A DNA stretch of 60,674 nucleotides, taken from positions 1 to 60,674 of the IMG/VR virus record IMGVR_UViG_3300017774_001580, one strand, 5' to 3'. The DNA comes from a virus. Taxonomy: Duplodnaviria; Caudoviricetes. The notes under the pieces are model-generated. The model was given only the letters and a program-made list of their open reading frames with translations. It was not told where the DNA came from and searched no databases. The position numbers and the translations under genes are program-made. Each line of letters begins with the position of its first letter. Positions within the stretch are counted from its first letter, which is position 1. Below, one piece after another: positions 1-27,988 of this stretch.

Positions 1-123
1 GCCCTCAGTAATGATTGGCTTTAGTATGTTCTCAATCTGTAAGATGTTACTTATCTCAATGTCAGCAACCAAGACCATCACATCCTCAAACACACACTCG
101 TCCTTTTTTTGGTCATTGATGAA
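1..123. repeat. Terminal overlap identical to 60552-60674 (circular assembly)
   Basis: The 123-bp sequence gccctcagta...cattgatgaa is at both ends and lies inside groEL, whose frame is continuous across the join. Confidence 0.95.
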
Positions 124-753
124 CATATTTGACAGATAGCCCCTGTCAATCTTTAGACCCTTGGTGGTCTCAGCATACGTCTCATGGGTCTGGCTCTTCT
201 CCACAGTGACAATGCCATCTCTCCCGATGTCCTTGTACACCTCAGCGATTATTCGCCCTATCTCCTTGTCATTGTTAGCTGATATTGTAGCCACGTCAAC
301 GAGCATCTTACTCGTCACCTTCTTGGCCTTAGCCGTCAACTGCCTCACCACCTCATTGCACATACTATGCAAATAGCGAAGCACCGCAGTGCGATTCACG
401 TCAGGCGTAAGCAACCTAGTCCCCTCAAGGACCATAGCCTCTGTCAAAATAATCGAGGTGGTTGTCCCATCCCCTGCACTGGTAGCGGTACGCTCAGCTG
501 CCTCCTTCATCATCCTAACCGCAAGGTTCTCTACCGGATCAAACAGGTCAATAGCCTTGGCTACTGTAACCCCATCCTTCGTAACTGTGATACCATGGGT
601 GTGATGAGGTGACTCAATCAACACCGTATTACCCCCTGGGCCAAGGGTACTCTTAACCGCATCAGCAATCTTAGTGATGCCATCAATTAACTTGTTGCGC
701 CCCTTCTCTCCAAAGACTAAATCCTTGGGTGAATAACCTGAACTGTCAAACAT
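1..753 (-). CDS. groEL: Chaperonin GroEL, N-terminal part (continues at 60551 to 59664; about 546 aa in total)
   Basis: Manual translation from ATG 753: MFDSSGYSPKDLVFGEKGRNKLIDGITKIADAVKSTLGPGG...ITVTKDGVTVAK...AGDGTTTS (ATP-binding motif)...ATISANND; absent from the ORF track because it is split by the window end. Confidence 0.96.
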   Translation of the reverse strand, partial: MFDSSGYSPKDLVFGEKGRNKLIDGITKIADAVKSTLGPGGNTVLIESPHHTHGITVTKDGVTVAKAIDLFDPVENLAVRMMKEAAERTATSAGDGTTTSIILTEAMVLEGTRLLTPDVNRTAVLRYLHSMCNEVVRQLTAKAKKVTSKMLVDVATISANNDKEIGRIIAEVYKDIGRDGIVTVEKSQTHETYAETTKGLKIDRGYLSNMFINDQKKDECVFEDVMVLVADIEISNILQIENILKPIITEG

Positions 754-1027: not shown

Positions 1028-1058
1028 CAAAGATAGGATTACTTTTTATATTACCAAA
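1028..1058 (-). promoter_or_regulatory. Bacteroidota sigma-A type promoter, probably leaderless transcript
   Basis: Minus strand TTTG (1058-1055), 19 nt, TATCTTTG (1035-1028); ATG follows after 4 nt. Confidence 0.75.
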
Positions 1059-1331: not shown

Positions 1332-1357
1332 AAAAAAAAGGCACCCCGAAGGATGCC
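1332..1357 (-). terminator. Rho-independent terminator
   Basis: Minus strand GGCATCC-TTCG-GGGTGCC followed by a T8 run, just after the 1379-1627 gene. Confidence 0.85.
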
Positions 1358-1378
1358 CAATTATGAAACACCAACTAA

Positions 1379-1627
1379 CTAACGCCTAATCTTTATTGGC
1401 ATCATCATCATCTCCGAGGCCTCACTTATCATCTCCCCACGTGAATACCCCTCAGCTATCATATTCACCTTCTCCTCATACTTCGCCATCTTCCTAGCCC
1501 TAGCCATCTCAGCTATACCAGTCTCACTGGTTGGCCTATTGTTAATCAAGCGACCATTCTTCATAGTCAACCCATCCGCTCCGGCATATCCACCGTAAAT
1601 GCTGTTTGAAATCCCTTTTACTTTCAT
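1379..1627 (-). CDS. Hypothetical protein (82 aa, MKVKGISNS...)
   Basis: ATG 1627 with ACATATAGCT-ATG context, its own promoter (1659-1666) and terminator; the longer track ORF runs through non-coding repeats. Confidence 0.7.
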   Translation of the reverse strand: MKVKGISNSIYGGYAGADGLTMKNGRLINNRPTSETGIAEMARARKMAKYEEKVNMIAEGYSRGEMISEASEMMMMPIKIRR

Positions 1628-1658
1628 AGCTATATGTTTTAATTCGTTAACGTTGATA

Positions 1659-1666
1659 CAAAGGTA
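1659..1666 (-). promoter_or_regulatory. Bacteroidota -7 promoter element
   Basis: TACCTTTG on the minus strand about 30 nt upstream of ATG 1627; -33 element not canonically spaced. Confidence 0.55.
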
Positions 1667-1699
1667 AAAAAAATTATTACAAAAAAAGAATCTTTGGGT

Positions 1700-1920
1700 A
1701 CTATAGCGGATTGGCGCAGCCGGCCGCGATCCGGAAGCGAGATTTTTTTCGATGGGGGGGGTGCTGTTTTGACCTGCTTTGCCCGATTTTTTGGCTTTTT
1801 TGTAGACGTCGTTGCCGTCGTTGCCGTCGTACACCTGTGCGCTGTTGCTGTCCTGCTGTCCGTCCGTCCTTTGCCGTATACGTCGCACACTTCGTATGTC
1901 TCTCGCTGTTGCTGTCGCTC
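1700..1920. repeat. GC-rich, A-poor non-coding block with hairpin, G8 run and short repeats; candidate physical genome end region
   Basis: CGGATTG/CGATCCG hairpin 1707-1733; G8 at 1754-1761; (CGTCGTTGC) tandem 1807-1830; CGCTGTTGCTGTC at 1840 and 1904; lies between divergent transcription arms. Confidence 0.5.
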
Positions 1921-1960
1921 ACATTATATAGAACTATATCTTTAAGTTTAGTTACTTTGC

Positions 1961-2259
1961 TTAGAATGTACACTAACTTTGTTTAATATCTAAACTAACC
2001 TTTGCTTACATTCTAAACTAACCTTATAGTACTTTGTACAATATCCTTGGTGTTATAATTACACTAACCTACTTATAGTACTTTTTACAATAACTGATTT
2101 TATGTTATTGTACTTCTTACAATAAGTAACTATTTGCACAAACATAGTTTATAATTTAATTGTTTTTTGTCTCTTTTTTGATCCATTATTGTATCTTTTT
2201 TGTTCCCATATTGTTACCAGGTGAAGCAATATTTTACTTATAGTACTTTTTACAATAAG
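1961..2259. repeat. Dispersed direct repeats CTTATAGTACTTTTTACAATA (4 copies) and CTAAACTAACCT
   Basis: Copies at 2023, 2072, 2104 (degenerate) and 2237; CTAAACTAACCT at 1990 and 2013; inverted TTAGAATGTA/TACATTCTAA at 1961 and 2007. Confidence 0.8.
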
Positions 2260-2408
2260 GTATACCCCCTCTCTTTTTTTCTCTCTCTTTAAATTTCTTT
2301 AAATTTTACCTATTTCAAAAAACCTAGGTTTTATCGGGCTTTCAGCGTTTTGTTGGTTTGGGGTCAAAAAATATTTTTACTTTTTTTAAAAATAATTTGA
2401 CAAAATGT

Positions 2409-2438
2409 TTTGAAATATCAAAACAAGCAGTAACTTTG
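2409..2438 (+). promoter_or_regulatory. Bacteroidota sigma-A type early promoter
   Basis: TTTG (2409-2412), 18 nt, TAACTTTG (2431-2438); heads the + strand arm. Confidence 0.7.
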
Positions 2439-2444
2439 CTACCA

Positions 2445-2940
2445 TACTGATACATCGGTGACACAATGGTGACACAAATTAGTATAAAGAAAAAGTTATT
2501 TATATATATTTATTAGTAGTCGCGTTGTGGCAACAGCTAACAAAAGTACATATATATAAAGTTTAAAAGTTCTTTCTATTTTGTTGGTTTTGGGACTGCG
2601 CGGTGCATTCAACTATAATGAGAAAAGCAAGCGCGATATATGTACCCGTGTACATATTATCGGTAAATAAGGAGTGAATGCCTATTTACGTATCTAAGGG
2701 GAACGAGGAAAATTAGATATTGAAAGCCCAAATAATGTTTTTTTGAGTCTTAATTGACTTTAGGTTACTGCAAAGGCATTGCAGTGTAAAAGATAGCAAT
2801 CTACTATTTTTTGTCCTATACATTTGTTTTGGCGAATTGCCTATATAGGTTTAAAGTTATTAAGTAGGAACTTAATATAAAAACTATTTATCTGTAGTTT
2901 TCTTTTTTGATTTCGATATCAAAATAGGCACAAATTTTTT
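2445..2940 (+). ncRNA. Candidate large structured RNA / 5' leader
   Basis: About 500 nt with no ORF of 60 aa or more between promoter and first gene; about 12 helices found by eye, two multibranch domains and a possible 7-bp loop-loop pairing. Confidence 0.55.
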
Positions 2941-2962
2941 AACACTTTAAACACTACTAACA

Positions 2963-3055
2963 ATGGAAACACTAATTGTATTTGTCGTAATTGCATTTTT
3001 TGCAATGCTATTTTTCAGTCCTATTTTAAAGGACACAACCGAACACAATTTCTAA
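2963..3055 (+). CDS. 30-aa single-TM peptide (METLIVFVVIAFFAMLFFSPILKDTTEHNF)
   Basis: Manual translation; preceded by the same AACACTTTAAA...ACA-ATG motif as other early genes. Confidence 0.6.
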   Translation: METLIVFVVIAFFAMLFFSPILKDTTEHNF

Positions 3056-3082
3056 TTAACTAACTTTTAAAACAATACTAAA

Positions 3083-3790
3083 ATGAGAGCGATTTTTAGA
3101 ACTGAAAACACTATCCAAATTTTTAGATTTGGTACAACGTCCAACGATAAAATTGAGGCAAACAAAAAACGTAAAATTGTACAAAGTTACACTTTCAGTC
3201 GGACTCAATACGAACTAATTTTACAAGGCTTAAATGACGGAATGAAAACATTTTTTAACAATGCAGATACAAACTGCTTAGACTGTCCGTTTAACTCATT
3301 CGGCAAATGTTACACACATAAATTTAATCAGTACGTTGGCTTTATTTCAATGCTTAAATCTGTAGTAAAAGACTATAAAGATTTTTATGACATACCAACG
3401 TATAACAGCGAGATAAAAGAACAAATTTTAAATATGTCTCAAAATACATATGTCAGATTTGGTACATATGGCGAACCTTCCTTACATCCTATTGACTTAA
3501 TAAGTGACATTGTGAAAGTGTGCGATAATTGGACGGGTTACACACACCAACACCAAAAAAGACCCGACCTAAGCGGTTATTTTATGGCTTCGACTCATAC
3601 AATTGAGGAAGAACTAACAGCTAGAAACGAGGGTTACCGCTCATTTATAGCAACTGAGACAAAAATCGACGGCATTGTAAATTGTCCCGCATCAAAAGAA
3701 GCGGGTTATAAGTCAACTTGCAGTAAGTGTGGGCTTTGTTCGGGTACATTAGGCAAAGGCAAAAAATCTGTATTCATTCTAGTACACTAA
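3083..3790 (+). CDS. Cys-rich phage protein, Gp88-like (possible Fe-S / radical-SAM-like fold)
   Basis: CLDCP...CY, VRFGTYGEP, WTGYTHQ, CPAS...TCSKCGLC motifs. Confidence 0.6.
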   Translation: MRAIFRTENTIQIFRFGTTSNDKIEANKKRKIVQSYTFSRTQYELILQGLNDGMKTFFNNADTNCLDCPFNSFGKCYTHKFNQYVGFISMLKSVVKDYKDFYDIPTYNSEIKEQILNMSQNTYVRFGTYGEPSLHPIDLISDIVKVCDNWTGYTHQHQKRPDLSGYFMASTHTIEEELTARNEGYRSFIATETKIDGIVNCPASKEAGYKSTCSKCGLCSGTLGKGKKSVFILVH

Positions 3791-3797
3791 AATATAA

Positions 3798-4074
3798 AAC
3801 CGACATTTTTAAACATTTTAAACTTATCTTACTATGACTAGACTATTTAGAATTGGAGTTTATAAAAACTTCGAAGGACAAATTTATTGCGATGTATATG
3901 CTAAAACCTATGAGTCAGCATTACAGCAACAAGAAAATGAGATGCTCACAAATATGTTATTTTATCCAAGTTCAATGATTATTGAATTGGATGTTGATAC
4001 TTCTCAAGATAGAGATTTGTTCCATCAAATTTGTATACTTTAAAGTCAACCGACATTTTTAAACATTTTAAACT
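3798..4074 (+). repeat. 27-bp direct repeat AACCGACATTTTTAAACATTTTAAACT flanking gene 3834-4043
   Basis: Exact copies at 3798-3824 and 4048-4074. Confidence 0.9.
3834..4043 (+). CDS. Hypothetical early protein
   Basis: 69-aa ORF with conserved upstream motif. Confidence 0.7.
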   Translation: MTRLFRIGVYKNFEGQIYCDVYAKTYESALQQQENEMLTNMLFYPSSMIIELDVDTSQDRDLFHQICIL

Positions 4075-4082
4075 ATCTAACA

Positions 4083-4397
4083 ATGGATTCTAAAATCAGA
4101 GATTTTTATTGGAACACAAACAAAGATTTTGTACTCAGTGTGCTTAACTACGAATTTAAGGATGAATTCGAGACAACTGACAATAGTTGGTACAACGATG
4201 AGTGCCCGTCCTTACTGCTCAAATTTGAGACGTATACAATGCAATTGTTTCTGCCTTCAGATTACAAAGGCGAATATTCAGAATATTGTCTAATGGTGTA
4301 CAATACCTACAGCGACTTTATGGATGACAATTCAGAAACATATTTTTTCTTCACCAATCTCAATGATGTAATTGAGCAACTTAAAACCTATCTTTAA
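4083..4397 (+). CDS. Hypothetical acidic early protein
   Basis: 104 aa, D/E/Y-rich, SWYNDECPS motif. Confidence 0.75.
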   Translation: MDSKIRDFYWNTNKDFVLSVLNYEFKDEFETTDNSWYNDECPSLLLKFETYTMQLFLPSDYKGEYSEYCLMVYNTYSDFMDDNSETYFFFTNLNDVIEQLKTYL

Positions 4398-4398
4398 T

Positions 4399-4521
4399 AT
4401 GTATACAGCACTTGAAATTGGCTTAGAATACCTACCATATTGGGATGATGAGACCGAAACAACAGAAACAACAGAAACAACAGAGACAACAGAGTTAAAC
4501 AATATTGAACTACCTTTTTAA
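4399..4521 (+). CDS. 40-aa acidic peptide with (ETT)4 repeat ending NIELPF
   Basis: Manual translation MYTALEIGLEYLPYWDDETETTETTETTETTELNNIELPF; fills the gap between neighbours; in-frame 9-bp tandem repeat. Confidence 0.65.
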   Translation: MYTALEIGLEYLPYWDDETETTETTETTETTELNNIELPF

Positions 4522-4532
4522 ACTTAACAACA

Positions 4533-4718
4533 ATGGACAATCTAAAAGAAAAATTAACAGAACTAGTAATTGAAGTAGTCGATTACATATTTGTACAAGG
4601 TCACTCAATAGCAGAGACAAAGTCGGGCGACTATACTCCCGAGCAAATGTTCGAACTAGAGCGAATACAAAGTGAGTTAACAGAATTATTGTACCAACAA
4701 ATTAAACAGAACCTATAA
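4533..4718 (+). CDS. Hypothetical early protein
   Basis: 61-aa ORF, SGDYTPEQ motif, stop overlaps next start. Confidence 0.7.
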   Translation: MDNLKEKLTELVIEVVDYIFVQGHSIAETKSGDYTPEQMFELERIQSELTELLYQQIKQNL

Positions 4719-4948
4719 TGGAAAAAATTATTAAACTGCTAAAGCAGTACGAAGAAACAAGACAACATCTGTTCGCATATACAGATACATTTTACGATGC
4801 TATAGGCTATGACATCGAGGGCTATTGGGAAGACCTCGAAGAGTTAACCGATGAGGATGTAAAAGATTTGCAACAGAAGATTAAAAACTTTGAGGCACTT
4901 ACAAAAGTTTGGGCAAAGATCTGGAAAGTTGACTTTAAGTATTGCTAA
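4718..4948 (+). CDS. Hypothetical early protein
   Basis: 76-aa ORF translationally coupled to the previous gene. Confidence 0.7.
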   Translation: MEKIIKLLKQYEETRQHLFAYTDTFYDAIGYDIEGYWEDLEELTDEDVKDLQQKIKNFEALTKVWAKIWKVDFKYC

Positions 4949-4952
4949 TTGT

Positions 4953-4978
4953 ATCGGGGTGCAGTATCCGACCAACTG
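4953..4978 (+). repeat. Intergenic 26-nt motif copy 1 (ATCGGGGTGCAGTATCCGACCAACTG)
   Basis: Identical to 7928-7953. Confidence 0.9.
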
Positions 4979-5012
4979 AAAATATTATTCAACACTTTAA
5001 AACTATAACACA

Positions 5013-5552
5013 ATGTTAACAGAAAATCAGAAAAAAGCAATCGAATTTATTACAGAACAATTCGAAAATTTAAACGCTTCACAGCCAAAGAAAAAATTCA
5101 ATTTAGTTGATGTTCAGCCATTATTAGAAAAAAATGAGCGGATAGTACAACTCAATAAGGAATTAGAATTGATGGAGGAAACGTGGTCAAATCTGATAAA
5201 TGACGAATTGCATAGAATCTGTAATTTATTCAGAGAAGACTTGCCATCAGATAAAACAGATGTAATTATAAATGAATACGGAAAAGTATTAAAGATATGT
5301 AGAAGAATATATTTAAGAAATGGTGATGTGTATAATCCATCTTATGTTGATGAATGTGTTACTATCAGTTTATATAAGGCACATAATCAAGTCTATGATG
5401 AATATTGCCAAATGTACATAAAAAATATCTATGGGATTTATTATAAATTAAACTATAAGGATACAAGGTATAACACAATAGAAGAATTGGTGGCAACAGA
5501 TGAATTTAAAAATAGTATAAGAAATCGAGTGCTATACAGACAGAACAGATGA
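5013..5552 (+). CDS. Hypothetical early protein
   Basis: 179-aa ORF flanked on both sides by TGAAAATATTATTYAACACTT. Confidence 0.75.
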   Translation: MLTENQKKAIEFITEQFENLNASQPKKKFNLVDVQPLLEKNERIVQLNKELELMEETWSNLINDELHRICNLFREDLPSDKTDVIINEYGKVLKICRRIYLRNGDVYNPSYVDECVTISLYKAHNQVYDEYCQMYIKNIYGIYYKLNYKDTRYNTIEELVATDEFKNSIRNRVLYRQNR

Positions 5553-5633
5553 CTACTATGTCAGAAATAGTGAGGGAGAGACAGAGAGAATTTATATTGA
5601 AAATATTATTTAACACTTAAAAACAATACAGCT

Positions 5634-5897
5634 ATGACAAAAGTATTTGAAATTCTAAAAGATGTAGACAATGACAGATATGTATTTGTACACATTGACA
5701 AAAGTGGCATATGCGGTCTTAATTTCCATCAAGATGTAACAGAGATTGTGTGGGCATATGCAGAACCCGATGTGCATCTCACAGAAATTTGGAGAAGGTT
5801 AGCACTGAACTTTCCTCATACAGAAAGGTCATTCTTAATAGAGAAAGCTATTGATTTATATATAGATGCATTCATTACACAACTAATAAAACTATAA
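5634..5897 (+). CDS. Hypothetical early protein
   Basis: 87-aa ORF with conserved upstream motif. Confidence 0.7.
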   Translation: MTKVFEILKDVDNDRYVFVHIDKSGICGLNFHQDVTEIVWAYAEPDVHLTEIWRRLALNFPHTERSFLIEKAIDLYIDAFITQLIKL

Positions 5898-5902
5898 ACA
5901 AG

Positions 5903-6124
5903 ATGAAAAAATTTATTGCAAAGGACAAAATTATGAACTTGCCGATTGGTCATTCTATCGATTGGAAATTCGGGTTGATTACTCGTGATGTTTACAGAAT
6001 GTCAGAAGACAAATTTGACATCACAGAAACCTGTGGTGGTTGGGTAAATGCTATTGTAGACAAACAAACAATGCAAGACATATTAGATGGTAAAATCTCA
6101 CTACTTGAGTTGGATTGGTTCTAA
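5903..6124 (+). CDS. Hypothetical early protein
   Basis: 73-aa ORF. Confidence 0.7.
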   Translation: MKKFIAKDKIMNLPIGHSIDWKFGLITRDVYRMSEDKFDITETCGGWVNAIVDKQTMQDILDGKISLLELDWF

Positions 6125-6161
6125 TCACTTTAATTATTAAACACTTTAAACTATTAAAAAA

Positions 6162-6314
6162 ATGAGAAAGAAATTAATTGAGGCTATTTTCGATTTCGCA
6201 TCCGATGAAATTGAAACAATTGAAGAGGCAAAAAATTATGCAGTGATGACTGAGGAAGAACTGGTCGACTGCTTAATAGAGATTGTAGAGTACTACAGAG
6301 ACCAATCAAATTAA
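6162..6314 (+). CDS. Hypothetical acidic 50-aa protein (MRKKLIEAIFDFASDE...)
   Basis: Manual translation; upstream AAACACTTTAAA motif; fills the gap. Confidence 0.65.
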   Translation: MRKKLIEAIFDFASDEIETIEEAKNYAVMTEEELVDCLIEIVEYYRDQSN

Positions 6315-6343
6315 ATTATTAAACACTTAAAAACAATACAGCT

Positions 6344-6769
6344 ATGAATTACAATGTAAAAAGAGAATGTTGGAATGAAAAAACATTCAACGGATATGAG
6401 GACAATCCTTACTGGAGAATTGATTTCAGAGGCTTATCTTTCGGACTGAAAGACAATGGTATGCTGTGGTCAATTGGGAACAAAGGGATAACAGAAATTG
6501 ATTTTTTAGACATCCAAAGAATACTTAGAGAATGTAAATTGGAAATAAGTTTTGAACTTCCTAACATCTCCAGAGAAGATTATGTCTTATGGGATACAAA
6601 AAACAATTGCCCTTTGGAGGACTTAGATATTGTATACCATTATACAAGTCTCATTGAATTTTTAAATGATGGGATGAAAATTAAGGAAGGTGAACAATTT
6701 TGGTGTATTACAAGTATTCCGTTAAGGTGGCGAATATTGTACAATGCAGAAATTGAAAGGAACAAATAA
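6344..6769 (+). CDS. Hypothetical early protein
   Basis: 141-aa ORF with conserved upstream motif. Confidence 0.7.
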   Translation: MNYNVKRECWNEKTFNGYEDNPYWRIDFRGLSFGLKDNGMLWSIGNKGITEIDFLDIQRILRECKLEISFELPNISREDYVLWDTKNNCPLEDLDIVYHYTSLIEFLNDGMKIKEGEQFWCITSIPLRWRILYNAEIERNK

Positions 6770-6797
6770 TTATTAAACACTTTAAAACATTAACACT

Positions 6798-7283
6798 ATG
6801 CCAAACTGGTGCGCAAATTACACTACCTTCAGAGGTAGTAAAGAAAACATTGAAGCTTTGAACAATGCAATAAACAAAGCAATTGAGAGAGAGTCAGCCG
6901 AGAGAAACGCTCAAGCAATACACAGCTCAGATGTGAAAGAGGGTTACTTCTTCGACCTATACAGCAATGGTATTGAACACGAAGAGTTGACAATATTTTA
7001 CGAGACAAAATGGTCTCCAAACATTGATGACTTGGCTATACTCTGTAAAGAGTTCGGAGTGGATGCAGAGACAGAGTTCAATGAGAGCGGAGAGCAAGTA
7101 TATGGCACAGCAAAATTATATTCAGATGGGACATATTTAACTGAGTTTGTGGAGCAGGAGTTCTTAGATCTAATCGAATATGACATTTGTACTGACCTAT
7201 ACACTTACAATGGCGAAGATTACGGAGTCTTTGAAGAGATTATTGATGACCATTATTCAACTTGGAAAAACAACAACTTATGA
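6798..7283 (+). CDS. YubB / DUF1281-like ferredoxin-fold protein
   Basis: MPNWCxN start and FYETKWSP motif typical of this family. Confidence 0.65.
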   Translation: MPNWCANYTTFRGSKENIEALNNAINKAIERESAERNAQAIHSSDVKEGYFFDLYSNGIEHEELTIFYETKWSPNIDDLAILCKEFGVDAETEFNESGEQVYGTAKLYSDGTYLTEFVEQEFLDLIEYDICTDLYTYNGEDYGVFEEIIDDHYSTWKNNNL

Positions 7284-7447
7284 CCTACAAATTTATGGAT
7301 AGGGTAAAAGTATCTTACAATGGAGAGGTAGTTGAGTGCCTCTTCATTGCCTACTACAGAATGTATTCGTTGCATCAAAGATGTTTGCTGCACTGCCCGA
7401 AATTAAAAGAAACATTTTTTGAATCGCTGAAAAACATAATCGAATGA
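7280..7447 (+). CDS. Hypothetical early protein
   Basis: ATG 7280 overlaps previous stop (ATGA). Confidence 0.55.
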   Translation: MTYKFMDRVKVSYNGEVVECLFIAYYRMYSLHQRCLLHCPKLKETFFESLKNIIE

Positions 7448-7635
7448 TATTCTATCTGCTATTACTAATTGGCATTGTCAAGCCACAAGATGACAATCTG
7501 TACGCATTCTTTACTCCCGATGGGAAGGTATATGAATATGCCTACAGAGAAGAGATAATGGAGGCTATCCGTACCGGTATTTTTAAATACAACGAAGATT
7601 TACATAACAATTTAAATACAGAAACCAATGACTAA
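7444..7635 (+). CDS. Hypothetical protein with hydrophobic N-terminus
   Basis: 63-aa ORF, ATGA overlap. Confidence 0.6.
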   Translation: MIFYLLLLIGIVKPQDDNLYAFFTPDGKVYEYAYREEIMEAIRTGIFKYNEDLHNNLNTETND

Positions 7636-7921
7636 GAAAGTTTATGTGTACCACTTGTTTGAAGGTACAACTGAGGTGGCTAGTTTTGAGTCTTACAAAT
7701 GGCTCTCAGACTTCGAGATTAAAAAGAAAAAATGGAGGTATGAAAAGAACTCTAAGCAAAGCCTACGATGGGTTGTAGAAGAGCGAAAGCTTACCTTTGA
7801 TGAGGTCTTGGATATGAGAGAGGACTTTCCTGGGCAAGAGCCAATTGAGTACACTGAGGAGCAAATTAAAATCCTTGAGTACTACTATGACGAGCAAAGG
7901 AGACAGCAACAGCTAGACTAA
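7628..7921 (+). CDS. Hypothetical early protein
   Basis: 97-aa ORF. Confidence 0.7.
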   Translation: MTKKVYVYHLFEGTTEVASFESYKWLSDFEIKKKKWRYEKNSKQSLRWVVEERKLTFDEVLDMREDFPGQEPIEYTEEQIKILEYYYDEQRRQQQLD

Positions 7922-7927
7922 TCAACA

Positions 7928-7953
7928 ATCGGGGTGCAGTATCCGACCAACTG
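7928..7953 (+). repeat. Intergenic 26-nt motif copy 2
   Basis: Identical to 4953-4978. Confidence 0.9.
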
Positions 7954-7987
7954 CAATTTTTATAAACAATCTTAAACATTAACAGCT

Positions 7988-8182
7988 ATGACAACTCAGA
8001 ATTCAGTATTGCCGTCTGAAAAGGCGAAAGAACTTATTAAGGATTACGGAATGAAAGGTGCTGACCTATTTTTGGTAGACCTACTTACAATATTGGTCTT
8101 CGACACTCAAAGTGTATCTTCAGTCAAAGATTTGATTGACTACTATACCTTAGTACAGCAGGAACTTCGCAAAATTCATTAA
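7988..8182 (+). CDS. Hypothetical early protein
   Basis: 64-aa ORF, AACAGCT-ATG context. Confidence 0.65.
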   Translation: MTTQNSVLPSEKAKELIKDYGMKGADLFLVDLLTILVFDTQSVSSVKDLIDYYTLVQQELRKIH

Positions 8183-8203
8183 CACTTAAAATACTATAAC
8201 ACA

Positions 8204-8386
8204 ATGGAAAAGTTTCCAATTTGTAGCGGTGGAAGAATAGTTTTCTACATCGACCTTAACATTGAAACCTTGATGATTTATGTCTCAAGAAAAACAGCAA
8301 ACAAAGTCCTATCCGCACACAATGATGGTATGCTTTGGGGTGCAAATCTGACTAAAAAAGGTAGGATTAAATTCATAATAATATGA
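8204..8386 (+). CDS. Hypothetical early protein
   Basis: 60-aa ORF with conserved upstream motif. Confidence 0.6.
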   Translation: MEKFPICSGGRIVFYIDLNIETLMIYVSRKTANKVLSAHNDGMLWGANLTKKGRIKFIII

Positions 8387-8625
8387 AAAAATACAAGAGG
8401 GCGATAAAGCTTAAAGAGTTTCTCCCTATCTACGAGAGTAGAAACAGCGATGTGGTCAAAGTAATTATGCCTTTGATGGAGCTAAGAAAGTATGAGCCGA
8501 TTGCGAAATTCAAACATCGGGTGATGCTGTTCAGAAATGATAATATCATCAAGGCATATTTCAATGACAATGGAAAGATTAAATATATGGTTCTTAACAA
8601 ATTAAACAAAGTAGCAACAATATGA
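8383..8625 (+). CDS. Hypothetical basic protein
   Basis: 80-aa ORF, ATGA overlaps. Confidence 0.6.
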   Translation: MKKYKRAIKLKEFLPIYESRNSDVVKVIMPLMELRKYEPIAKFKHRVMLFRNDNIIKAYFNDNGKIKYMVLNKLNKVATI

Positions 8626-8873
8626 GAGTTCAAATCAATGGAAAGAAATTAGAAATCGATGGATGGTACTATGCCGGATTTAAATCTAGAGACAGACTTG
8701 AACCCGATGAACCACAAGAATTCATCATTGACCATATCACACTGCTCGAAGAGTTTGATGAGGTGGACGATGACATCTATCAAAATATGGATTACGATCT
8801 TCAGCTTGAGTTCCTTGGCGTGACTGAGGAGGAGCTAAGCAATTATTTACTAAACTATTACTTAGACAAATGA
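8622..8873 (+). CDS. Hypothetical very acidic protein
   Basis: 83 aa, D/E-rich. Confidence 0.7.
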   Translation: MRVQINGKKLEIDGWYYAGFKSRDRLEPDEPQEFIIDHITLLEEFDEVDDDIYQNMDYDLQLEFLGVTEEELSNYLLNYYLDK

Positions 8874-8950
8874 AAAAGACAGATATAATCTTTGCAGTGT
8901 TCCTGCTGCTACTCGCTATCTATTACACACTAATATTCTTTAACAACTAA
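8870..8950 (+). CDS. 26-aa single-TM peptide (MKKTDIIFAVFLLLLAIYYTLIFFNN)
   Basis: Manual translation; ATGA overlap with previous stop. Confidence 0.55.
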   Translation: MKKTDIIFAVFLLLLAIYYTLIFFNN

Positions 8951-8960
8951 ATTTATAACA

Positions 8961-9167
8961 ATGAAGCATCTAATAAGTCTGACGTGCATTGTGGCATATG
9001 CAATTGTAACGTACTTTACAGCCAACTTTATTCTTCACTCCTTCTCTAATGCTGACTCTTTAGTCAGCATTGTTGAGGCGACGCTCACTACATTGATAAT
9101 ACTATTAGTGACATTACTAGCAGGATATTTTTGTGTTAAAATAATTACAGAAAAAGATACAATGTAA
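8961..9167 (+). CDS. Small 2-TM membrane protein
   Basis: 68 aa with two hydrophobic helices. Confidence 0.65.
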   Translation: MKHLISLTCIVAYAIVTYFTANFILHSFSNADSLVSIVEATLTTLIILLVTLLAGYFCVKIITEKDTM

Positions 9168-9215
9168 TAAACTTTTGCTACCTTTGTGGTACATTAATTA
9201 ATTAAATACAATACA

Positions 9216-9521
9216 ATGAAAAAGAAAATTTTTCTAGACTACCTTGACGCTGTGTGCAGTGTGTACGATATCTCTAGAGCGGACGTGCTGTCCAACAACA
9301 AGAAAAAAGAACTCTCTGAAGCAAGACATTGCTTGTACTACCTATGCCGAATGAGACCAATGAGAGTTACTGACATACAAAAGTATATCTCAGAGGTGAG
9401 TGAGTATGTGCCGTCCCACGTTCCTATCATTCGTGGTGTCAATAGAGTTAAGCAACTACTAGAGGAGGACAGAGATGTGGCTGTCATCCTGGAGCGAATC
9501 AAGAACAAAGTATTTATCTAA
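9216..9521 (+). CDS. DnaA C-terminal (domain IV)-like DNA-binding protein
   Basis: LDAVCSVYDISRADVLS..KKKELSEARHCLYYLCR...SHVPII resembles the Bac_DnaA_C pattern; TACCTTTG -7 element at 9179-9186. Confidence 0.65.
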   Translation: MKKKIFLDYLDAVCSVYDISRADVLSNNKKKELSEARHCLYYLCRMRPMRVTDIQKYISEVSEYVPSHVPIIRGVNRVKQLLEEDRDVAVILERIKNKVFI

Positions 9522-9542
9522 TCAAATCAAATTTAATTTATT

Positions 9543-10202
9543 ATGGCACAACAAAAGAACAGCGTTTTCGCTACGCTATCAGCGATCAATCTCAATGACA
9601 AGGTTGAGAAGAAAAGCAATCTGACCTACCTCTCGTGGACTTATGCGTGGTCTGAGGTCAAGAAGCATTATCCCGATGCCAACTATGAGGTGGTATTCTT
9701 CGATGATTTACCATATTCACATGACTACAAAACAGGTTATATGGTGTTCACCAAGGTGACCATCGAGGGGCAGACACATATGATGTGGCTACCGGTAATG
9801 GACGGAGCAAACAAGTCGATGAAAGATACTGAGTACAGCTATGCTACTCGCTACGGAGACAAGACGGTTGAGTCTGCGACAATGTTCGACATCAACAAAG
9901 CCATCATGCGCTGCTTGGTTAAGAACCTTGCGATGTTTGGCTTAGGCATCTACATCTATGCCGGTGAGGACTTGCCCGAAGGTGAGACTACTGCTCCGAC
10001 CATCACCTCTAAGCCTAAGGCTGAGGCGAAGCAATCGCTACCACTAGAGGTTGGCGATAGCAACTGGGCAAAGGTCTCAGCATATGTGAGCGACAATAAA
10101 GCCTCCGGCATTGAGGCAATTTTACAACAACTATCTCGTAAGTACAGCGTATCTGCTGCTACTAAGAAGGAGCTAGTAAAAATCATCAACAACAATGGAT
10201 AA
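9543..10202 (+). CDS. Single-strand annealing protein, Sak / DUF1071 family
   Basis: NLTYLSWTYAW, MWLPVMD, DINKAIMRCLVKNLAMFGLGIYIYAGEDLP. Confidence 0.85.
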   Translation: MAQQKNSVFATLSAINLNDKVEKKSNLTYLSWTYAWSEVKKHYPDANYEVVFFDDLPYSHDYKTGYMVFTKVTIEGQTHMMWLPVMDGANKSMKDTEYSYATRYGDKTVESATMFDINKAIMRCLVKNLAMFGLGIYIYAGEDLPEGETTAPTITSKPKAEAKQSLPLEVGDSNWAKVSAYVSDNKASGIEAILQQLSRKYSVSAATKKELVKIINNNG

Positions 10203-10929
10203 CATACTAGAGCTATTGCAAGACGATAAGGAGTACTACAGAGGGGTTGGACGGAACTATCTGTCCAACTCCGACATAGGGTCTCTGTTAGGTAACCCAA
10301 ATGAATTTGGAAAGCCTCGTGCTGACAACAAATCATTTGCTGAGGGGAGATACTTCCATCAGCTGATACTAGAGCCTGACAAGGCAGCAGAGACACCCTT
10401 CGTTGATGCATCGACAAGGACAACCAACATCTATAAAAACTTTTGCGAGGACAATAACTTTGAGTACGTCCTGCTATGGAAAGAGATGAAGGAGATACAA
10501 GGTTTGGTGGCTACGATGAAAAAGAATATCACGTTTTACGACATGATTTATGCCGATGGCAACAAGTTTGAAGTTCCTGCATTTGCTGAGATACAAGGGG
10601 AGATGTGGAAAGGAAAGGCAGATATTGTATGCGATGATAGTTTGATAGACCTAAAAACTACGAGCGACATCAACAAGTTCAAATGGTCGGCTAAGTCTTA
10701 CAACTATGACAGCCAGTGCTACATCTACCAAGAGCTTTTCGGCAAGCCATTGGCATTCTTGGTGATCGATAAGGTCACTGCTCAGCTAGGGATCTTTAAG
10801 CCATCGTATGACTTTGTAAAGGGTGGCGAAGCTAAGGTCACCAAGGCGATTGAGGTGTATAGAAAATATTTCGGGGCTAACCCACAGGACGATGTTGTCA
10901 ATTACTTTATTAACGAAACATTGTTCTAA
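10195..10929 (+). CDS. RecE / Exonuclease VIII-like PD-(D/E)xK nuclease (DUF3799-like)
   Basis: YLSNSDI, GRYFHQLILEP, KGKAD...IDLKTT, YNYDSQ; adjacent to the SSAP. Confidence 0.8.
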   Translation: MDNILELLQDDKEYYRGVGRNYLSNSDIGSLLGNPNEFGKPRADNKSFAEGRYFHQLILEPDKAAETPFVDASTRTTNIYKNFCEDNNFEYVLLWKEMKEIQGLVATMKKNITFYDMIYADGNKFEVPAFAEIQGEMWKGKADIVCDDSLIDLKTTSDINKFKWSAKSYNYDSQCYIYQELFGKPLAFLVIDKVTAQLGIFKPSYDFVKGGEAKVTKAIEVYRKYFGANPQDDVVNYFINETLF

Positions 10930-11573
10930 TGGCTTATCTGAATCACGATATACCAACAATCACTTGCTATCTGAGAAATCAGTTTATGTTCAACCACGAG
11001 AATGGCTTCGATGAATTTACGCTATGCGATGTACACTGCGTAGCGTCAATTGAGAAGAGAACACCTCTGTTCGAAGCCTTTTTAGAAAATGGGGTCAACT
11101 GGACAAGAAGACCAATCCATGCATTCTGTTGGAGGAAAGATGCTGAGGTACTGCCATTGTCAGAGCATATCTATTGGGACTGCTTTAGCAGTTACATCTC
11201 TGTACAGACAAGGTCACGGATGATTGGACTGAGTGCTGACTTAATCTCCATTACCGGAGTGAAGCGACAAGGAAATTATCTCTTTACTCTTGATTGGTCA
11301 CACGAGAATCGATCGATGCTTGACACCAACTTCAGCGAGACACCTGAGCATAAGTGCGCTCATCTTTTCAAGATGGACAATGGCAACTACTTTCTCTATC
11401 CCAACAACCGGATCATATGGATGGACAATGCTTGGACGTACAATAGGATTGACAAGAACCCTGGGTACAAGATTGACATGAACATTTACTCTGCTGAGCA
11501 GAAGGGTGGCTACGAGACGGACAATAACTACATAACAAATTTCGAAGATGATACTAAAATCAATAGTAAATAA
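10929..11573 (+). CDS. Conserved phage hypothetical protein
   Basis: 214 aa; PIHAF, YWDCFS, YLFTLDW, EHKCAH, PNNRI motifs; function unknown. Confidence 0.75.
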   Translation: MAYLNHDIPTITCYLRNQFMFNHENGFDEFTLCDVHCVASIEKRTPLFEAFLENGVNWTRRPIHAFCWRKDAEVLPLSEHIYWDCFSSYISVQTRSRMIGLSADLISITGVKRQGNYLFTLDWSHENRSMLDTNFSETPEHKCAHLFKMDNGNYFLYPNNRIIWMDNAWTYNRIDKNPGYKIDMNIYSAEQKGGYETDNNYITNFEDDTKINSK

Positions 11574-11940
11574 TTGTAATGTACACCTAAAGCCATCCTT
11601 GGTATGTGATGGCGTTGGAGTCTTTGCATTGGTTGACATAAAGAAGGGGACAATTCTTTTTGGAGATATAAATCCCGATGTGGACTACATCTCATTCGAT
11701 GAGCTTTCAGATATACCAATCGAGGTAATAAATTATCTCAAAAGCATTTGCAATAATGACAAGAAAGGAGTATATTTGAGCCGTACTATCTCAGCTATCA
11801 ATGTCAGCTACTATGTAAACCATTCGCAAGACTTCAACGTCAGTCACGATTTGAGCATCGACAGATACATAACTACAAGAGACATATTGAAGGGCGAAGA
11901 GATCCTTTGCCTATACCATTATAACGAAATTGATTGGTAA
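11548..11940 (+). CDS. SET-domain protein-lysine methyltransferase
   Basis: GVGVFA..DIKKG (motif I), YVNHS..FN (NHS motif), RDILKGEEILCLY (C-terminal motif with Tyr). Confidence 0.85.
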   Translation: MILKSIVNNCNVHLKPSLVCDGVGVFALVDIKKGTILFGDINPDVDYISFDELSDIPIEVINYLKSICNNDKKGVYLSRTISAINVSYYVNHSQDFNVSHDLSIDRYITTRDILKGEEILCLYHYNEIDW

Positions 11941-11963
11941 CTTTTTAAATTAAATCTAATACA

Positions 11964-12272
11964 ATGGAAGAGAAAATATTTGCAAATGGTTTCAGTTTTA
12001 AGCGTAATGAGAACGCTCCTGAATTTGTTGTTGGTCGCTTGTCAATGAAGATTGATGATGCCATCGAGTTCATGAAACAGAACCAAAAGAATGGTTGGAT
12101 AAACCTAGACGTAAAAAAAGCCCGTACAGGCAACTTTTATATAGAGTTGGATACATACATCCCGAAGCAGGGTGAAAGTCCAACAGAAGCCAAAAGAATC
12201 ACATCTAAGGCACAATCTCCTAAAACATCCAACAAGGAGATGTTTGATGATGATGACGATATTCCATTTTAG
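11964..12272 (+). CDS. Putative single-stranded DNA-binding protein
   Basis: Beta-rich small domain plus acidic tail DDDDDIPF; between recombination and replication genes. Confidence 0.65.
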   Translation: MEEKIFANGFSFKRNENAPEFVVGRLSMKIDDAIEFMKQNQKNGWINLDVKKARTGNFYIELDTYIPKQGESPTEAKRITSKAQSPKTSNKEMFDDDDDIPF

Positions 12273-12296
12273 TTTAGTGTGTTAATAGTGTTTCAG

Positions 12297-12322
12297 AGGG
12301 GAGTTAATAGCTCCCCTTTTTT
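12297..12322 (+). terminator. Rho-independent terminator
   Basis: AGGGGAG-TTAATAG-CTCCCCT followed by a T run. Confidence 0.85.
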
Positions 12323-12336
12323 ACCAACTGAAAATT

Positions 12337-12521
12337 CGATTTTAAAATCCCTATATTCTCTCTTATATTTTTATTACTATTTATATTTTTTATTATATAC
12401 ATATAGTAAAATCGACATTTTCGACATTAAATAAATAATATAATAATAATCAATAAGTTATAAAAAATTTATTGACATTTTATTGACACTAAAAATACAT
12501 AAAACTATAAAATTATGTCGA
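12337..12521. other. Origin-like element copy B, directly upstream of the primase-helicase
   Basis: TYGACA at 12412, 12421, 12472, 12483; inverted ATGTCGA at 12515 over the start codon; AATCAATAAGTTA at 12448-12460 matches IHF consensus; AT-rich tract. Confidence 0.65.
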
Positions 12522-14917: not shown

Positions 14918-14918
14918 T

Positions 14919-15599: not shown

Positions 15600-15616
15600 A
15601 ACTAAACACATCTAAA

Positions 15617-17071: not shown

Positions 17072-17346
17072 GAAACAAATTAGCCGGCAAGCACCCCTCG
17101 TATGACAAGCTTGGTATGTCAGAGGAGCGCAAGAAAAAGAAGATTGCCTATGACAAGGAATACCACAAGTCAGAGGAGCGTAAGGACTATAGGGTTGATC
17201 TGAACCGAAAGAATCGGGAGGCAGGAACCTATGGTAATGGTGATGGCAAAGATATGAGTCATACAAAGTCAGGAAAGCTTGTCTCTGAAGCCAAAGGCAC
17301 TAACAGAGCAAGAAATGGTCACAATAAAAAATCAACAAAGAAATGA
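17068..17346 (+). CDS. Small basic HNH-like protein
   Basis: GDGKDMSH...NRARN pattern of short degenerate phage HNH-like proteins. Confidence 0.5.
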   Translation: MRNKLAGKHPSYDKLGMSEERKKKKIAYDKEYHKSEERKDYRVDLNRKNREAGTYGNGDGKDMSHTKSGKLVSEAKGTNRARNGHNKKSTKK

Positions 17347-17896: not shown

Positions 17897-17908
17897 TTTA
17901 ATCAAATC

Positions 17909-18611: not shown

Positions 18612-18630
18612 ACCAATTTATACACACACA

Positions 18631-19063: not shown

Positions 19064-19065
19064 TA

Positions 19066-27975: not shown

Positions 27976-27988
27976 ATTATTATTTATT

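What the first reader, a model, noticed from the sequence alone, without database searches (positions are those of the whole stretch)
2445..2940. About 500-nt densely base-paired non-coding RNA at the head of the early operon
Seen: between the promoter (2409-2438) and the first ATG (2963) almost every segment has a pairing partner. A long AT-rich hairpin spans about 2488-2577. Domain 1 is closed by TTTGGG 2589-2594 / CCCAAA 2727-2732 and holds GCGC 2598/2631, GATATATGTAC 2635-2645 / GTACATATTATC 2650-2661, GTAAATA 2663 / TATTTAC 2683 and TATCTAA 2691 / TTAGATA 2713. GCATTCA (2605-2611) is complementary to TGAATGC (2675-2681), and both sit in loops, which would give a kissing-loop pseudoknot. 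Three hairpins follow (AGTC/GACT 2746-2759, ACTGCAA/TTGCAGT 2767-2785, AGAT/ATCT 2791-2802). Domain 2 is closed by TTTGTCCTAT 2810 / ATAGGCACAAA 2924 and holds TATTAAGT/ACTTAATA, AAAACTA/TAGTTTT and TTTTGAT/ATCAAAA. Inference: a large structured RNA made immediately on infection (antiterminator, anti-defence decoy, ribozyme or scaffold). I do not recognise it as a named family; large phage ncRNAs such as ROOL and GOLLD are precedent for the class only.
Basis: partly seen in the sequence, partly recalled or inferred. Interest (0 to 1): 0.85.

Follow-up and report, generated by a model that had tools for sequence, protein, structure and literature searches.

The report
New structured leader RNA in phage
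The roughly 490 bases between the first rightward promoter and the first gene of this freshwater Bacteroidota phage encode a previously undescribed, modular, heavily folded RNA whose helices are kept by compensating mutations in related phages, but whose job is still unknown.

Summary
Window 2444-2940 is non-coding and lies directly after a conserved Bacteroidota-type promoter (2409-2438). It folds into a 5' terminal hairpin, a long AT-rich hairpin, a five-helix junction (domain 1, 2589-2732), a hairpin module, and a four-way junction (domain 2 core, 2838-2930) that ends 32 nt before the first ATG.

Only three other distinct versions were found (L003, L079, L004). They still give strong covariation:
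- Domain 1: 17 of 43 pairs compensatory, 92% of cells paired against 29-49% in slid controls.
- Domain 2: 11 of 29 pairs compensatory, 94% against 35-49%.
- G.U outnumbers A.C 13 to 2, so the folded strand is the + strand.

No Rfam family, tRNA or tmRNA is detected.

- The conserved closure of domain 2 is TGCCTAT 2838-2844 / ATAGGCA 2924-2930, not 2810/2924.
- The third middle hairpin is 2788-2796 / 2804-2812.
- The kissing loop is unproven.

Domain 2 has a tRNA-like layout: a 7-bp closing stem, a UUCGAU loop hairpin stacked on it, and an invariant GG. Modules come and go between relatives.

The function is inferred only. I favour a co-transcribed cis leader with a processing or stabilising 3' module. 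A trans-acting decoy or scaffold is nearly as likely.

The parts
2409..2438 (+). Bacteroidota-type promoter (TTTG ... TAACTTTG); predicted start near 2444-2446
   Evidence: The motif TTTG-N17-23-TAnnTTTG occurs 10 times in the window against 3.07 expected, and 0 of 100 shuffles reach 10. The same motif sits at the same place in L003, L004 and L079, where the -33 box reads CTTG. The consensus itself is recalled from the literature, not taken from a call.
2444..2485 (+). P0: 5'-terminal hairpin ATACTGAT 2444-2451 / ATTAGTAT 2478-2485. Its loop holds two tandem GGTGACACAA repeats (2457-2466, 2468-2477).
   Evidence: Helix search. A helix at the same place with different letters occurs in L003 (CTTAATAC/GTGTTAAG). 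L004 (TCTGATA/TATCAGA) and L079 (TATCAC/GTGATA) were read by eye. There is no formal pair count, because MAFFT mis-registers L079.
2485..2577 (+). Long AT-rich irregular hairpin; core helix TTTATATATAT 2499-2509 / ATATATATAAA 2550-2560
   Evidence: (I14). An equivalent 11-13-bp core occurs in L079 (same letters), and in L003 and L004 with other letters (TATATGTTAAG/CTTAATATATA and TATATATTAAG/CTTAATGTATA, each with one G.U).
2589..2732 (+). Domain 1: P1 closing helix enclosing P2-P5. The large P2 loop (ATTCAACTATAATGAGAAAA) and P5 loop (GGGGAACGAGGAAAA) are almost invariant.
   Evidence: Model R1 finds it in the window, L003 and L079 only. 17 of 43 pairs are compensatory and 92.2% of cells are paired, against 28.9-49.2% when slid. 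It is absent from L004.
2745..2812 (+). Middle module: hairpin GAGTC/GACTT 2745-2760, then AGGTTA + H1' 2767-2773/2779-2785 (loop AAGGCA) + H2' 2788-2796/2804-2812 (loop CAATCTA). It looks like a partial duplicate of the first half of domain 2.
   Evidence: The window against L003 gives one compensatory pair in H1', and one compensatory plus one G.U change in H2'. Model R2 hits the L003 counterpart (3699-3780, 32.2 bits, E 3e-4) but not the window's own copy. The module is absent from L079 and L004.
2810..2819 (+).
   Evidence: Present in the window and L003 only. It overlaps the 3' strand of H2' by three bases. Not conserved, so probably incidental or a lineage-specific alternative fold.
2838..2930 (+). 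Domain 2 core, a four-way junction. Parts: closing stem TGCCTAT 2838-2844 / ATAGGCA 2924-2930; junction with invariant GG (2848-2849); H1 2858-2865/2870-2877 (loop AGGA); H2 2880-2887/2894-2901 (loop contains ATCT); H3 2906-2911/2918-2923 (loop TTCGAT), directly continuous with the closing stem.
   Evidence: Model R2 finds it in the window, L079, L004 and L003. 11 of 29 pairs are compensatory and 94.2% of cells are paired, against 35.4-48.9% when slid. L003 lacks H1 and H2 and has one short hairpin instead.
2935..2940 (+). T6 run, 4 nt after the closing stem
   Evidence: Read. Present in the window, L003 and L079. L004 has ACTATTTAAAA instead. Not called as a terminator by the scan.
2963..3055 (+). 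First ORF: a 30-aa hydrophobic peptide, 32 nt after domain 2
   Evidence: ORF list. Its start site scores 13.5 on the phage's own start-site matrix, where true starts have a median of 8.7. Homologous small ORFs occur in L003, L004 and L079.

Best explanation
Window 2444-2940 is the template of a genuine + strand RNA of about 490 nt. I read it as transcribed by the host RNA polymerase from the promoter at 2409-2438, as the 5' leader of the rightward operon of small early genes followed by replication and recombination genes.

It is built of separable modules: a hairpin that starts at +1, a long AT-rich hairpin, a five-helix junction with two large invariant loops, a duplicated hairpin module, and a four-way junction placed a fixed 24-33 nt before whichever ORF comes first.

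Most likely mode of action (inferred, not shown): it acts in cis on its own transcript.
- The +1 hairpin and the compact domains protect the 5' end of the early mRNA.
- The 3' module imitates the acceptor/T-arm half of a tRNA. It has a 7-bp closing stem, a coaxial hairpin with a UUCGAU loop and a GG junction.
- That module could serve as a processing and stabilising signal, for example cleavage by RNase P at the foot of the closing stem near 2838. This would separate a stable non-coding RNA from the translatable mRNA and leave an unstructured A/C-rich start region.

Shown here: the non-coding status, the helices, the strand, the promoter motif, and module gain and loss. Inferred: transcription timing, processing, and any effect on stability or translation.
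For: - Non-coding: there is no + strand ORF of 30 aa or more in 2451-2962. Internal ATGs score -12.9 to -2.7 on the phage's start-site matrix, against a median of 8.7 for 52 true starts. Minus-strand ORFs are not conserved.
- Structure: domain 1 has 17 of 43 pairs with changes on both sides, and 0 of 500 shuffles reach the observed paired fraction or covariation score. Domain 2 has 11 of 29, likewise 0 of 500. The two-sequence alignment of the whole leader has 12 compensatory pairs among 97.
- Strand: G.U cells number 13 against 2 A.C cells in the two alignments.
- Promoter: the motif is enriched in the window, is kept in all four versions, and P0 starts 5-8 nt after it.
- Cis position: no second promoter motif lies between the RNA and the ORF. 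The closing stem ends 32, 32, 24 and 33 nt before the next ORF in the window, L079, L004 and L003, although in L079 that ORF is a different, 94-aa gene.
- tRNA-like layout: the closing stem is 7 bp, H3 runs straight into it, the loop TTCGAT(T) is invariant, and GG is invariant in the junction. [quoted passage not shown]
- Weak hint of RNA: in one metatranscriptome run, the only contig at 95% likeness or more on 1900-3900 is 324 nt long and lies wholly inside the leader (2473-2796, 0 differences).
Against: - There are only four distinct sequences. All compensatory changes in domain 2 come from one lineage (L004), so the number of independent events is small.
- No transcript ends are known. The metatranscriptome contig has depth 2.3 and could be contaminating DNA.
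- ARAGORN finds no tRNA or tmRNA in the window or in 13 loci. The Rfam tRNA model does not match even in a 125-nt search.
- H3 has 6-7 bp and a 6-nt loop in 3 of 4 versions, whereas a T-arm has 5 bp and a 7-nt loop. There is no D-stem, no anticodon-type arm and no CCA.
- Whole modules are dispensable: domain 1 is absent in L004, the middle module is absent in L079 and L004, and H1/H2 are absent in L003. This fits an accessory trans-acting role as well as a cis role.
- The two large invariant loops of domain 1 are unexplained by a mere protective leader.
Confidence: 0.4

Rival explanations
1. A trans-acting stable RNA: the first product of infection is itself the effector. Candidates are a decoy or sponge for a host RNA-binding protein, a ribonuclease or a tRNA-directed defence nuclease, or a self-assembling scaffold. 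In this reading, the repeated hairpins with the same loop motifs (GG(A/C) loops and AUC(U) loops) and the tRNA-like module are multiple binding sites.
For: - The same two loop motifs recur in H1/H1' and H2/H2' and are kept while the stems change completely.
- The number of modules varies between close relatives, as expected for an arms-race element.
- Domain 1 has 15-20-nt invariant loops typical of ligand or protein sites.
- The metatranscriptome run holds the leader but none of the flanking genes (weak).
- Large phage-associated RNAs are reported to form RNA-only homo-oligomers (PMC12286853, abstract seen).
Against: - No partner is known.
- No complementary target for the two invariant loops occurs elsewhere in the phage: 0 extra matches beyond chance.
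- No Ro60/TROVE, RtcB or RNA-ligase family is found among 52 ORFs.
- The T-run after domain 2 is missing in L004, so a discrete 3' end is not assured.
- The loop-loop complementarity that could drive assembly is not conserved in L003.
Confidence: 0.3
2. A put-like processive antiterminator: the nascent leader binds the polymerase that made it and lets it read through pause and stop signals in the early operon.
For: The position immediately after the first promoter of the early operon is that of HK022 put, which acts as a nascent RNA without protein factors (PMC9378689, abstract seen). T-runs follow domain 1 (2738-2744) and domain 2 (2935-2940) in the window.
Against: - Terminator-like sites in 2400-19400 are not enriched: 10 found against 9.4 expected.
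- The T-runs are not conserved. L079 has A-runs after domain 1 and L004 has no T-run after domain 2.
- The RNA is about seven times the size I recall for put.
- Whole domains are dispensable.
Confidence: 0.1
3. A replication-linked element: the transcript primes or activates an origin lying in the adjacent repeat-rich, AT-rich region, or the hairpins act as single-stranded DNA structures.
For: Iteron-like direct repeats and inverted repeats lie at 1955-2269, just upstream. GC is 28% in 2001-3000. One ORF carries a DnaA C-terminal HTH domain (not mapped to a gene). The region sits at the switch between divergent gene blocks.
Against: Helices that span more than 90-140 nt and close multi-way junctions, invariant loops, and a 13:2 excess of G.U over A.C point to a folded single strand of + sense made from the promoter. 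There is no evidence for an R-loop site. The repeats lie outside the transcribed part.
Confidence: 0.07

Closest known systems
HK022 put RNA (promoter-proximal antiterminator RNA)
   Same: A structured RNA encoded immediately downstream of an early phage promoter, co-transcribed with the early operon, and needing no ORF (PMC9378689, abstract).
   Different: As I recall, put is two stem-loops of about 70 nt. This RNA is about 490 nt with two multi-way junctions. No terminator enrichment downstream. No sequence or model match could be tested, because I do not know of an Rfam model for put.
Bacterial Y RNA (YrlA) with a tRNA-like module
   Same: A modular RNA in which one module imitates tRNA, with a T-arm and an acceptor-like stem. 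A 7-bp stem makes it an RNase P substrate. Some are phage-encoded (PMC4201824, passages).
   Different: No Ro60/TROVE gene among 52 ORFs. No Rfam match. No D-arm. It is a leader of an operon, not a separate gene beside rsr.
GOLLD / ROOL large ornate RNAs
   Same: Large, multi-domain non-coding RNAs of unknown function, found in phages and environmental sequence (PMC12286853, abstract).
   Different: No match to their Rfam models. Much narrower distribution (four versions). The modules are separable rather than one integrated fold. A fixed promoter-to-first-ORF position.
tRNA / tmRNA tRNA-like domain
   Same: A 7-bp closing stem coaxial with a hairpin whose loop begins UUCGA, and GG in the strand that follows the 5' half of the stem.
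   Different: Not detected by ARAGORN or by the Rfam tRNA or tmRNA models. H3 is 6-7 bp. No D-stem, anticodon arm or CCA.

Membership tests
Any Rfam 15 family (4227 models, incl. GOLLD, ROOL, tRNA, tmRNA, 6S, riboswitches, ribozymes) | Score at or above the family's gathering threshold | tested here: not met
   0 matches over the whole window. In permissive scans of 1900-3200, of 2826-2950 and of L004 3712-3840, the best hits were 7-21 bits against thresholds of 46-125 bits, with E of 0.41 or more.
tRNA | Cloverleaf recognised by a tRNA finder | tested here: not met
   ARAGORN found 0 genes in the window and 0 in each of 13 loci.
tRNA | 7-bp acceptor stem coaxial with the T-arm | tested here: met
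   The closing stem is 7 bp in 4 of 4 versions (100% of cells paired, 5 of 7 pairs compensatory). H3 abuts it without spacer.
tRNA | T-arm of 5 bp with a 7-nt UUCRANN loop | tested here: inconclusive
   The loop is TTCGAT (6 nt) in 3 versions and TTCGATT (7 nt) in L004. The stem is 6-7 bp. The consensus is recalled, not from a call.
tRNA | D-arm, anticodon arm with 7-nt loop, 3' CCA | tested here: not met
   The junction after the closing stem is single-stranded (12-13 nt, GG invariant). H1 is 8 bp with a 4-nt loop. The tail is CAAAT / CTAAT / CTAAC.
Bacterial Y RNA (YrlA) | Encoded next to a Ro60 (TROVE) gene | tested here: not met
   Pfam scan of 52 ORFs returned 15 families, none of them TROVE, RtcB or an RNA ligase.
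HK022 put-type antiterminator RNA | Makes RNA polymerase read through downstream terminators | not testable with these tools
   Only indirect evidence: terminator-like sites are not enriched downstream (10 against 9.4 expected).
Intrinsic terminator | GC-rich hairpin directly followed by a U-run | tested here: not met
   No + strand terminator is called in 2400-3000. The T6 lies 4 nt after the conserved closing stem and is absent in L004.
Leader peptide / upstream ORF attenuator | A start site of normal quality and a conserved peptide inside the leader | tested here: not met
   ATG 2618 scores -2.7, below 96% of true starts. The three versions would encode peptides of 19, 34 and 26 aa that differ after six residues (read).

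The most novel reading that the evidence does not exclude
The very first RNA a phage makes is not a message but a weapon or a machine: a trans-acting, modular RNA. Its tRNA-like module and repeated hairpins with constant loops would capture a host factor, such as a tRNA-directed defence nuclease, RNase P or a global RNA-binding protein. Alternatively it would assemble into an RNA-only multimer. Modules would be gained and lost in an arms race. This would be an RNA-based counter-defence or host-takeover device in Bacteroidota phages.
Probability: 0.17. Interest if true: 0.85.

Novelty: new variant of a known kind. Interest (0 to 1): 0.62.

Why it matters
Bacterial and phage non-coding RNAs of several hundred nucleotides with multi-way junctions are rare, and those studied have turned out to have unusual biochemistry. 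This one sits at the most privileged place in a lytic phage genome: it is the first sequence transcribed from the rightward host-type promoter. Its helices are clearly under selection, and it belongs to no catalogued family.

Bacteroidota start translation without Shine-Dalgarno pairing, and their phage biology is poorly known. A structured leader with a tRNA-like module at a fixed distance from the first start codon could reveal how these phages stabilise, process or load their early messages, or how they disarm the host with RNA.

A related phage group with about 70% identity in the neighbouring gene has a different leader of similar length and position that contains a canonical T-arm-like hairpin. 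This suggests the phenomenon is family-wide rather than a single oddity.

Tried and rejected
- **Rfam.** Gathering thresholds gave 0 matches. Permissive scans gave only noise.
- **tRNA and tmRNA.** ARAGORN found none.
- **Public phage genomes.** blastn of 1900-3800 gave no match. The primase-helicase has a 74% relative in an uncultured record and only 39% partial matches in cultured Flavobacterium phages. The neighbouring gene has only matches below 60%, mostly in mycobacteriophages. No cultured system is therefore at hand.
- **More homologues by DNA pattern in viral contigs.** Two exact motifs found only the two contigs of L002/L003. The two-loop pattern gave 17 stretches; the 15 new ones were all rejected by model R1. 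The H1 pattern found only the contig of L004.
- **More homologues by DNA pattern in genome contigs.** 9 stretches matched, none in Bacteroidota, and R1 matched none.
- **Metagenome protein scan.** 49 loci were returned. Only L032 (same contig as L003) and L079 carry the RNA.
- **Weak model hit.** R1 gave a weak hit in L061 (14.1 bits, E 0.037, opposite strand to the neighbouring gene, many non-standard pairs). I judged it spurious and did not follow it up.
- **Other phage groups.** R1 and R2 found nothing in the 62-71% and 46-49% groups.
- **Kissing loop.** Inconclusive.
- **Upstream ORF or start-site mimic in the P2 loop.** Rejected.
- **Antisense targets of the two invariant loops in the phage.** None beyond chance.
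- **Terminators in the operon.** Not enriched.
- **Sequencing runs.** The DNA runs X4-X6 gave identical sequence over the leader, hence no new variants. Parts of the stretch without cover in any run are not evidence.
- **5' region alignment.** The four-sequence MAFFT alignment was not structure-compatible: RNAalifold found only 3 pairs. The 5' hairpins were therefore compared helix by helix.
- **2990-aa ORF.** No PDB sequence match.
- **Literature.** Searches listed no paper describing such an RNA in Bacteroidota or Flavobacterium phages. One search returned only unrelated papers. Only listings and abstracts were seen, except for PMC4201824, where passages were read. Supplements were not consulted.

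Full report
**Context.** The window is a complete 60,674-bp virus record with direct terminal repeats. Genes run leftwards up to 1023 and rightwards from 2963. The rightward block starts with small ORFs. It continues with a Sak-type annealing protein, a PDDEXK nuclease, a primase-helicase and an SNF2 helicase. The closest public genomes are an uncultured 60.8-kb phage (74% on the primase-helicase) and, distantly, Flavobacterium podophages. The promoter motif I recall for Bacteroidota (TTTG, about 19 nt, TAnnTTTG) occurs 10 times against 3.07 expected. Two copies flank the 1.9-kb intergenic region, at 1028-1058 (-) and 2409-2438 (+). The host is therefore most likely a freshwater member of the Bacteroidota; this is an inference.

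**The observation.** The region has no + strand ORF of 30 aa or more. As one piece, the + strand folds at -113.7 kcal/mol against -99.3 +/- 5.3 for dinucleotide shuffles (z -2.71, 1 of 100 as good). The - strand gives z -4.99. Per domain, the + strand z ranges from -1.2 to -3.0, and two of three coding controls reach -1.7 and -2.2. Thermodynamics alone would therefore not carry the claim and does not tell the strand.

**Relatives.** I fetched relatives through the neighbouring DUF7227-like gene. This gave 13 viral loci and 49 metagenome loci. DNA similarity to the leader exists only in the nearest ones:
- L002, L003 and L032 are one sequence (92% protein identity).
- L004 has 86% protein identity.
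- L079 has 82% protein identity.

These versions are strongly rearranged:
- L003 has all domains but only one short hairpin in place of H1 and H2.
- L079 lacks window 2736-2834 and has a 94-aa ORF inserted after domain 2.
- L004 lacks domain 1 and the middle module altogether.

**Covariation in domain 1.** A covariance model of domain 1 (R1) finds the window, L003 and L079 at 130-187 bits. It finds nothing convincing in 75 sources searched. On the model-based alignment:
- 92.2% of 128 cells are standard pairs, against 28.9-49.2% when the 3' partners are slid by 1-3 columns.
- 17 of 43 pairs changed on both sides.
- 0 of 500 shuffles reach the observed paired fraction, number of double changes or covariation score.

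The clearest case is P3. GATATATGTAC/GTACATATTATC in the window becomes GATGCACACGG/CCGTGTGTTGTT in L079, with every pair kept.

**Covariation in domain 2.** For the domain 2 core (R2), the four versions give 94.2% paired cells against 35.4-48.9% slid. 11 of 29 pairs are compensatory, and 0 of 500 shuffles do as well. All 11 come from L004, whose closing stem (TACTAGC/GCTAGTA), H1 and H3 use different letters from the other three. H2 of L004 forms its own helix in another register and is scored as unpaired. With three or four sequences these are few independent events, and an alignment fitted to a model leans towards it. The slid controls and the sheer number of double changes make chance an unlikely explanation.

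**Strand and molecule.** In the two alignments, 13 cells are G.U and 2 are A.C. On the opposite strand the ratio would be reversed. Long-range helices close junctions of 93 and 144 nt, and loops are invariant while stems change. Together with the promoter directly upstream, which is kept in all four versions with P0 starting 5-8 nt after it, this points to a folded + sense RNA rather than DNA palindromes for proteins. One metatranscriptome run holds a single 324-nt contig identical to 2473-2796 and nothing else at 95% likeness or more from 1900-3900. At depth 2.3, and without a DNA control, this is only a hint.

**Anatomy and corrections.**
- **P0.** The helix 2444-2451/2478-2485 starts at the predicted +1 and carries two GGTGACACAA repeats in its loop. 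Helices at the same place with other letters exist in the three relatives (and reading).
- **AT-rich hairpin.** Its core is 2499-2509/2550-2560. There are two sequence types among the four versions, each with an 11-13-bp core.
- **Domain 1.** Its P2 loop (ATTCAACTATAATGAGAAAA) and P5 loop (GGGGAACGAGGAAAA) are nearly invariant.
- **Proposed loop-loop pairing.** ATTCA 2607-2611 with TGAAT 2675-2679 is intact in the window and L079. L003 keeps only 2-3 pairs. Overall 12 of 15 cells pair, and 138 of 500 shuffles do as well. It stays open.
- **Third middle hairpin.** It is better read as AAAAGATAG 2788-2796 / CTATTTTTT 2804-2812, which covaries with L003.
- **Middle module as a duplicate.** The stretch AGGTTA, H1' and H2' resembles the first half of domain 2. 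R2 hits the L003 copy at 32.2 bits, E 3e-4. The window copy is not hit, so for the window this is by eye.
- **Closure of domain 2.** The conserved closure is 2838-2844/2924-2930.

**What domain 2 resembles.** Three features match the acceptor/T-arm half of a tRNA or of the tRNA-like domain of tmRNA (consensus recalled):
- a 7-bp closing stem;
- a hairpin continuous with its 3' strand whose loop reads TTCGAT(T);
- an invariant GG in the single strand after the 5' strand.

It is not a tRNA:
- ARAGORN and the Rfam models do not see it.
- H3 is 6-7 bp.
- There is no D-stem, no anticodon-type arm and no CCA.

A precedent for such partial mimicry is the tRNA-like module of bacterial and phage Y RNAs. 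One of these, which has a seven-base-pair stem, is cut by RNase P (PMC4201824, passages). No Ro60 gene is present here.

**Mechanism.** Nothing here measures function. The following facts bear on it:
1. The RNA begins at +1 of a host-type promoter, and no further promoter motif precedes the first ORF.
2. The closing stem ends 32, 32, 24 and 33 nt before the next ORF in the four versions, even where that ORF is a different gene.
3. Internal ATGs are poor starts, so there is no leader peptide.
4. Terminator-like sites are not enriched downstream, and the T-runs after domains 1 and 2 are not conserved.
5. Modules are gained and lost between phages that share 82-92% identity in the next gene.
6. 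Two loop motifs recur in duplicated hairpins.

I rank the explanations as follows:
- First (0.4): a cis-acting leader that protects the 5' end and is processed or anchored at the tRNA-like module.
- Second (0.3): a trans-acting decoy or scaffold.
- Third (0.1): put-like antitermination.
- Fourth (0.07): an origin-linked role.
- The remainder is left open.

**Scope.** The group of phages with about 70% identity in the neighbouring gene has its own non-coding leader of about 440-450 nt between a similar promoter and its first ORF. It cannot be aligned to this one. It contains an almost invariant block with a canonical T-arm-like hairpin (GGTGG TTCGATT CCATC). It also has a terminal hairpin with compensatory changes just before the start region. 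RNAalifold on 7 sequences predicted 54 pairs, 13 of them with double changes, although two rows align poorly. A long structured leader with a T-loop-type hairpin near its 3' end may thus be a family trait.

**Novelty and verdict.** No Rfam family matches. Three literature searches (listings and abstracts only) showed nothing of this kind for Bacteroidota phages. It is a real, new structured RNA of unusual size and position, known so far from four sequences and of unknown function. Interest 0.62.

Noticed in passing
window 1955-2269: There are four direct repeats CTTTGnTTAnAnTnTAAACTAACCT spaced 22-23 (and 46) nt apart. There are also four copies of TTATAGTACTTTTTACAATAA, with one adjacent pair forming an inverted repeat (2070-2094/2104-2128). 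They lie in the AT-rich space between the two divergent promoters and look like iterons or operators.
   Followed up: no
window 1339-1888 (-): A 169-aa ORF (1379-1888, minus strand) has no Pfam match. It is followed by a strong hairpin plus T8 terminator at 1358-1339. It is 83% identical at DNA level in L003 and contains GTTGCC-type short repeats.
   Followed up: partly
window 1-753 and 59664-60674 (-): A phage-encoded GroEL/Cpn60-like gene runs across the ends of the record.
   Followed up: no
L005 about 2565-3014, L007 about 2966-3410, L011, L006, L008, L037, L044, L048: The phage group with about 70% identity has a different leader of about 440-450 nt. It has a canonical T-arm-like hairpin (GGTGG-TTCGATT-CCATC) and a covarying terminal hairpin directly before its first ORF.
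   Followed up: partly
L079 541-825: A 94-aa ORF is inserted 32 nt after domain 2, the same spacing as the 30-aa ORF in the window. The 30-aa ORF follows at 888-980 behind a hairpin.
   Followed up: partly
window 2963-3055: The first gene is a 30-aa hydrophobic peptide (METLIVFVVIAFFAMLFFSP...). It is conserved as a small ORF in L003, L004 and L079.
   Followed up: partly
window 19066-28038 (-) and other ORFs: A 2990-aa ORF has no sequence match in the PDB. Among 52 ORFs, Pfam finds a crAss-type muzzle C-terminal domain, a SET domain, a DnaA C-terminal HTH and a P22-like portal. These hits were not mapped to genes.
   Followed up: no
window 2256-2300: A polypyrimidine tract CCCCCTCTCTTTTTTTCTCTCTC lies upstream of the promoter. 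It is conserved in L003 and L004.
   Followed up: no
L013 3318 and 3935, L068 1827 and 2435, L074 2443: A 16-nt perfect palindrome GTGTCTTCGAAGACAC recurs upstream of and near the DUF7227-like gene in the 46-49% group. It looks more like a protein-binding DNA site than an RNA hairpin.
   Followed up: no
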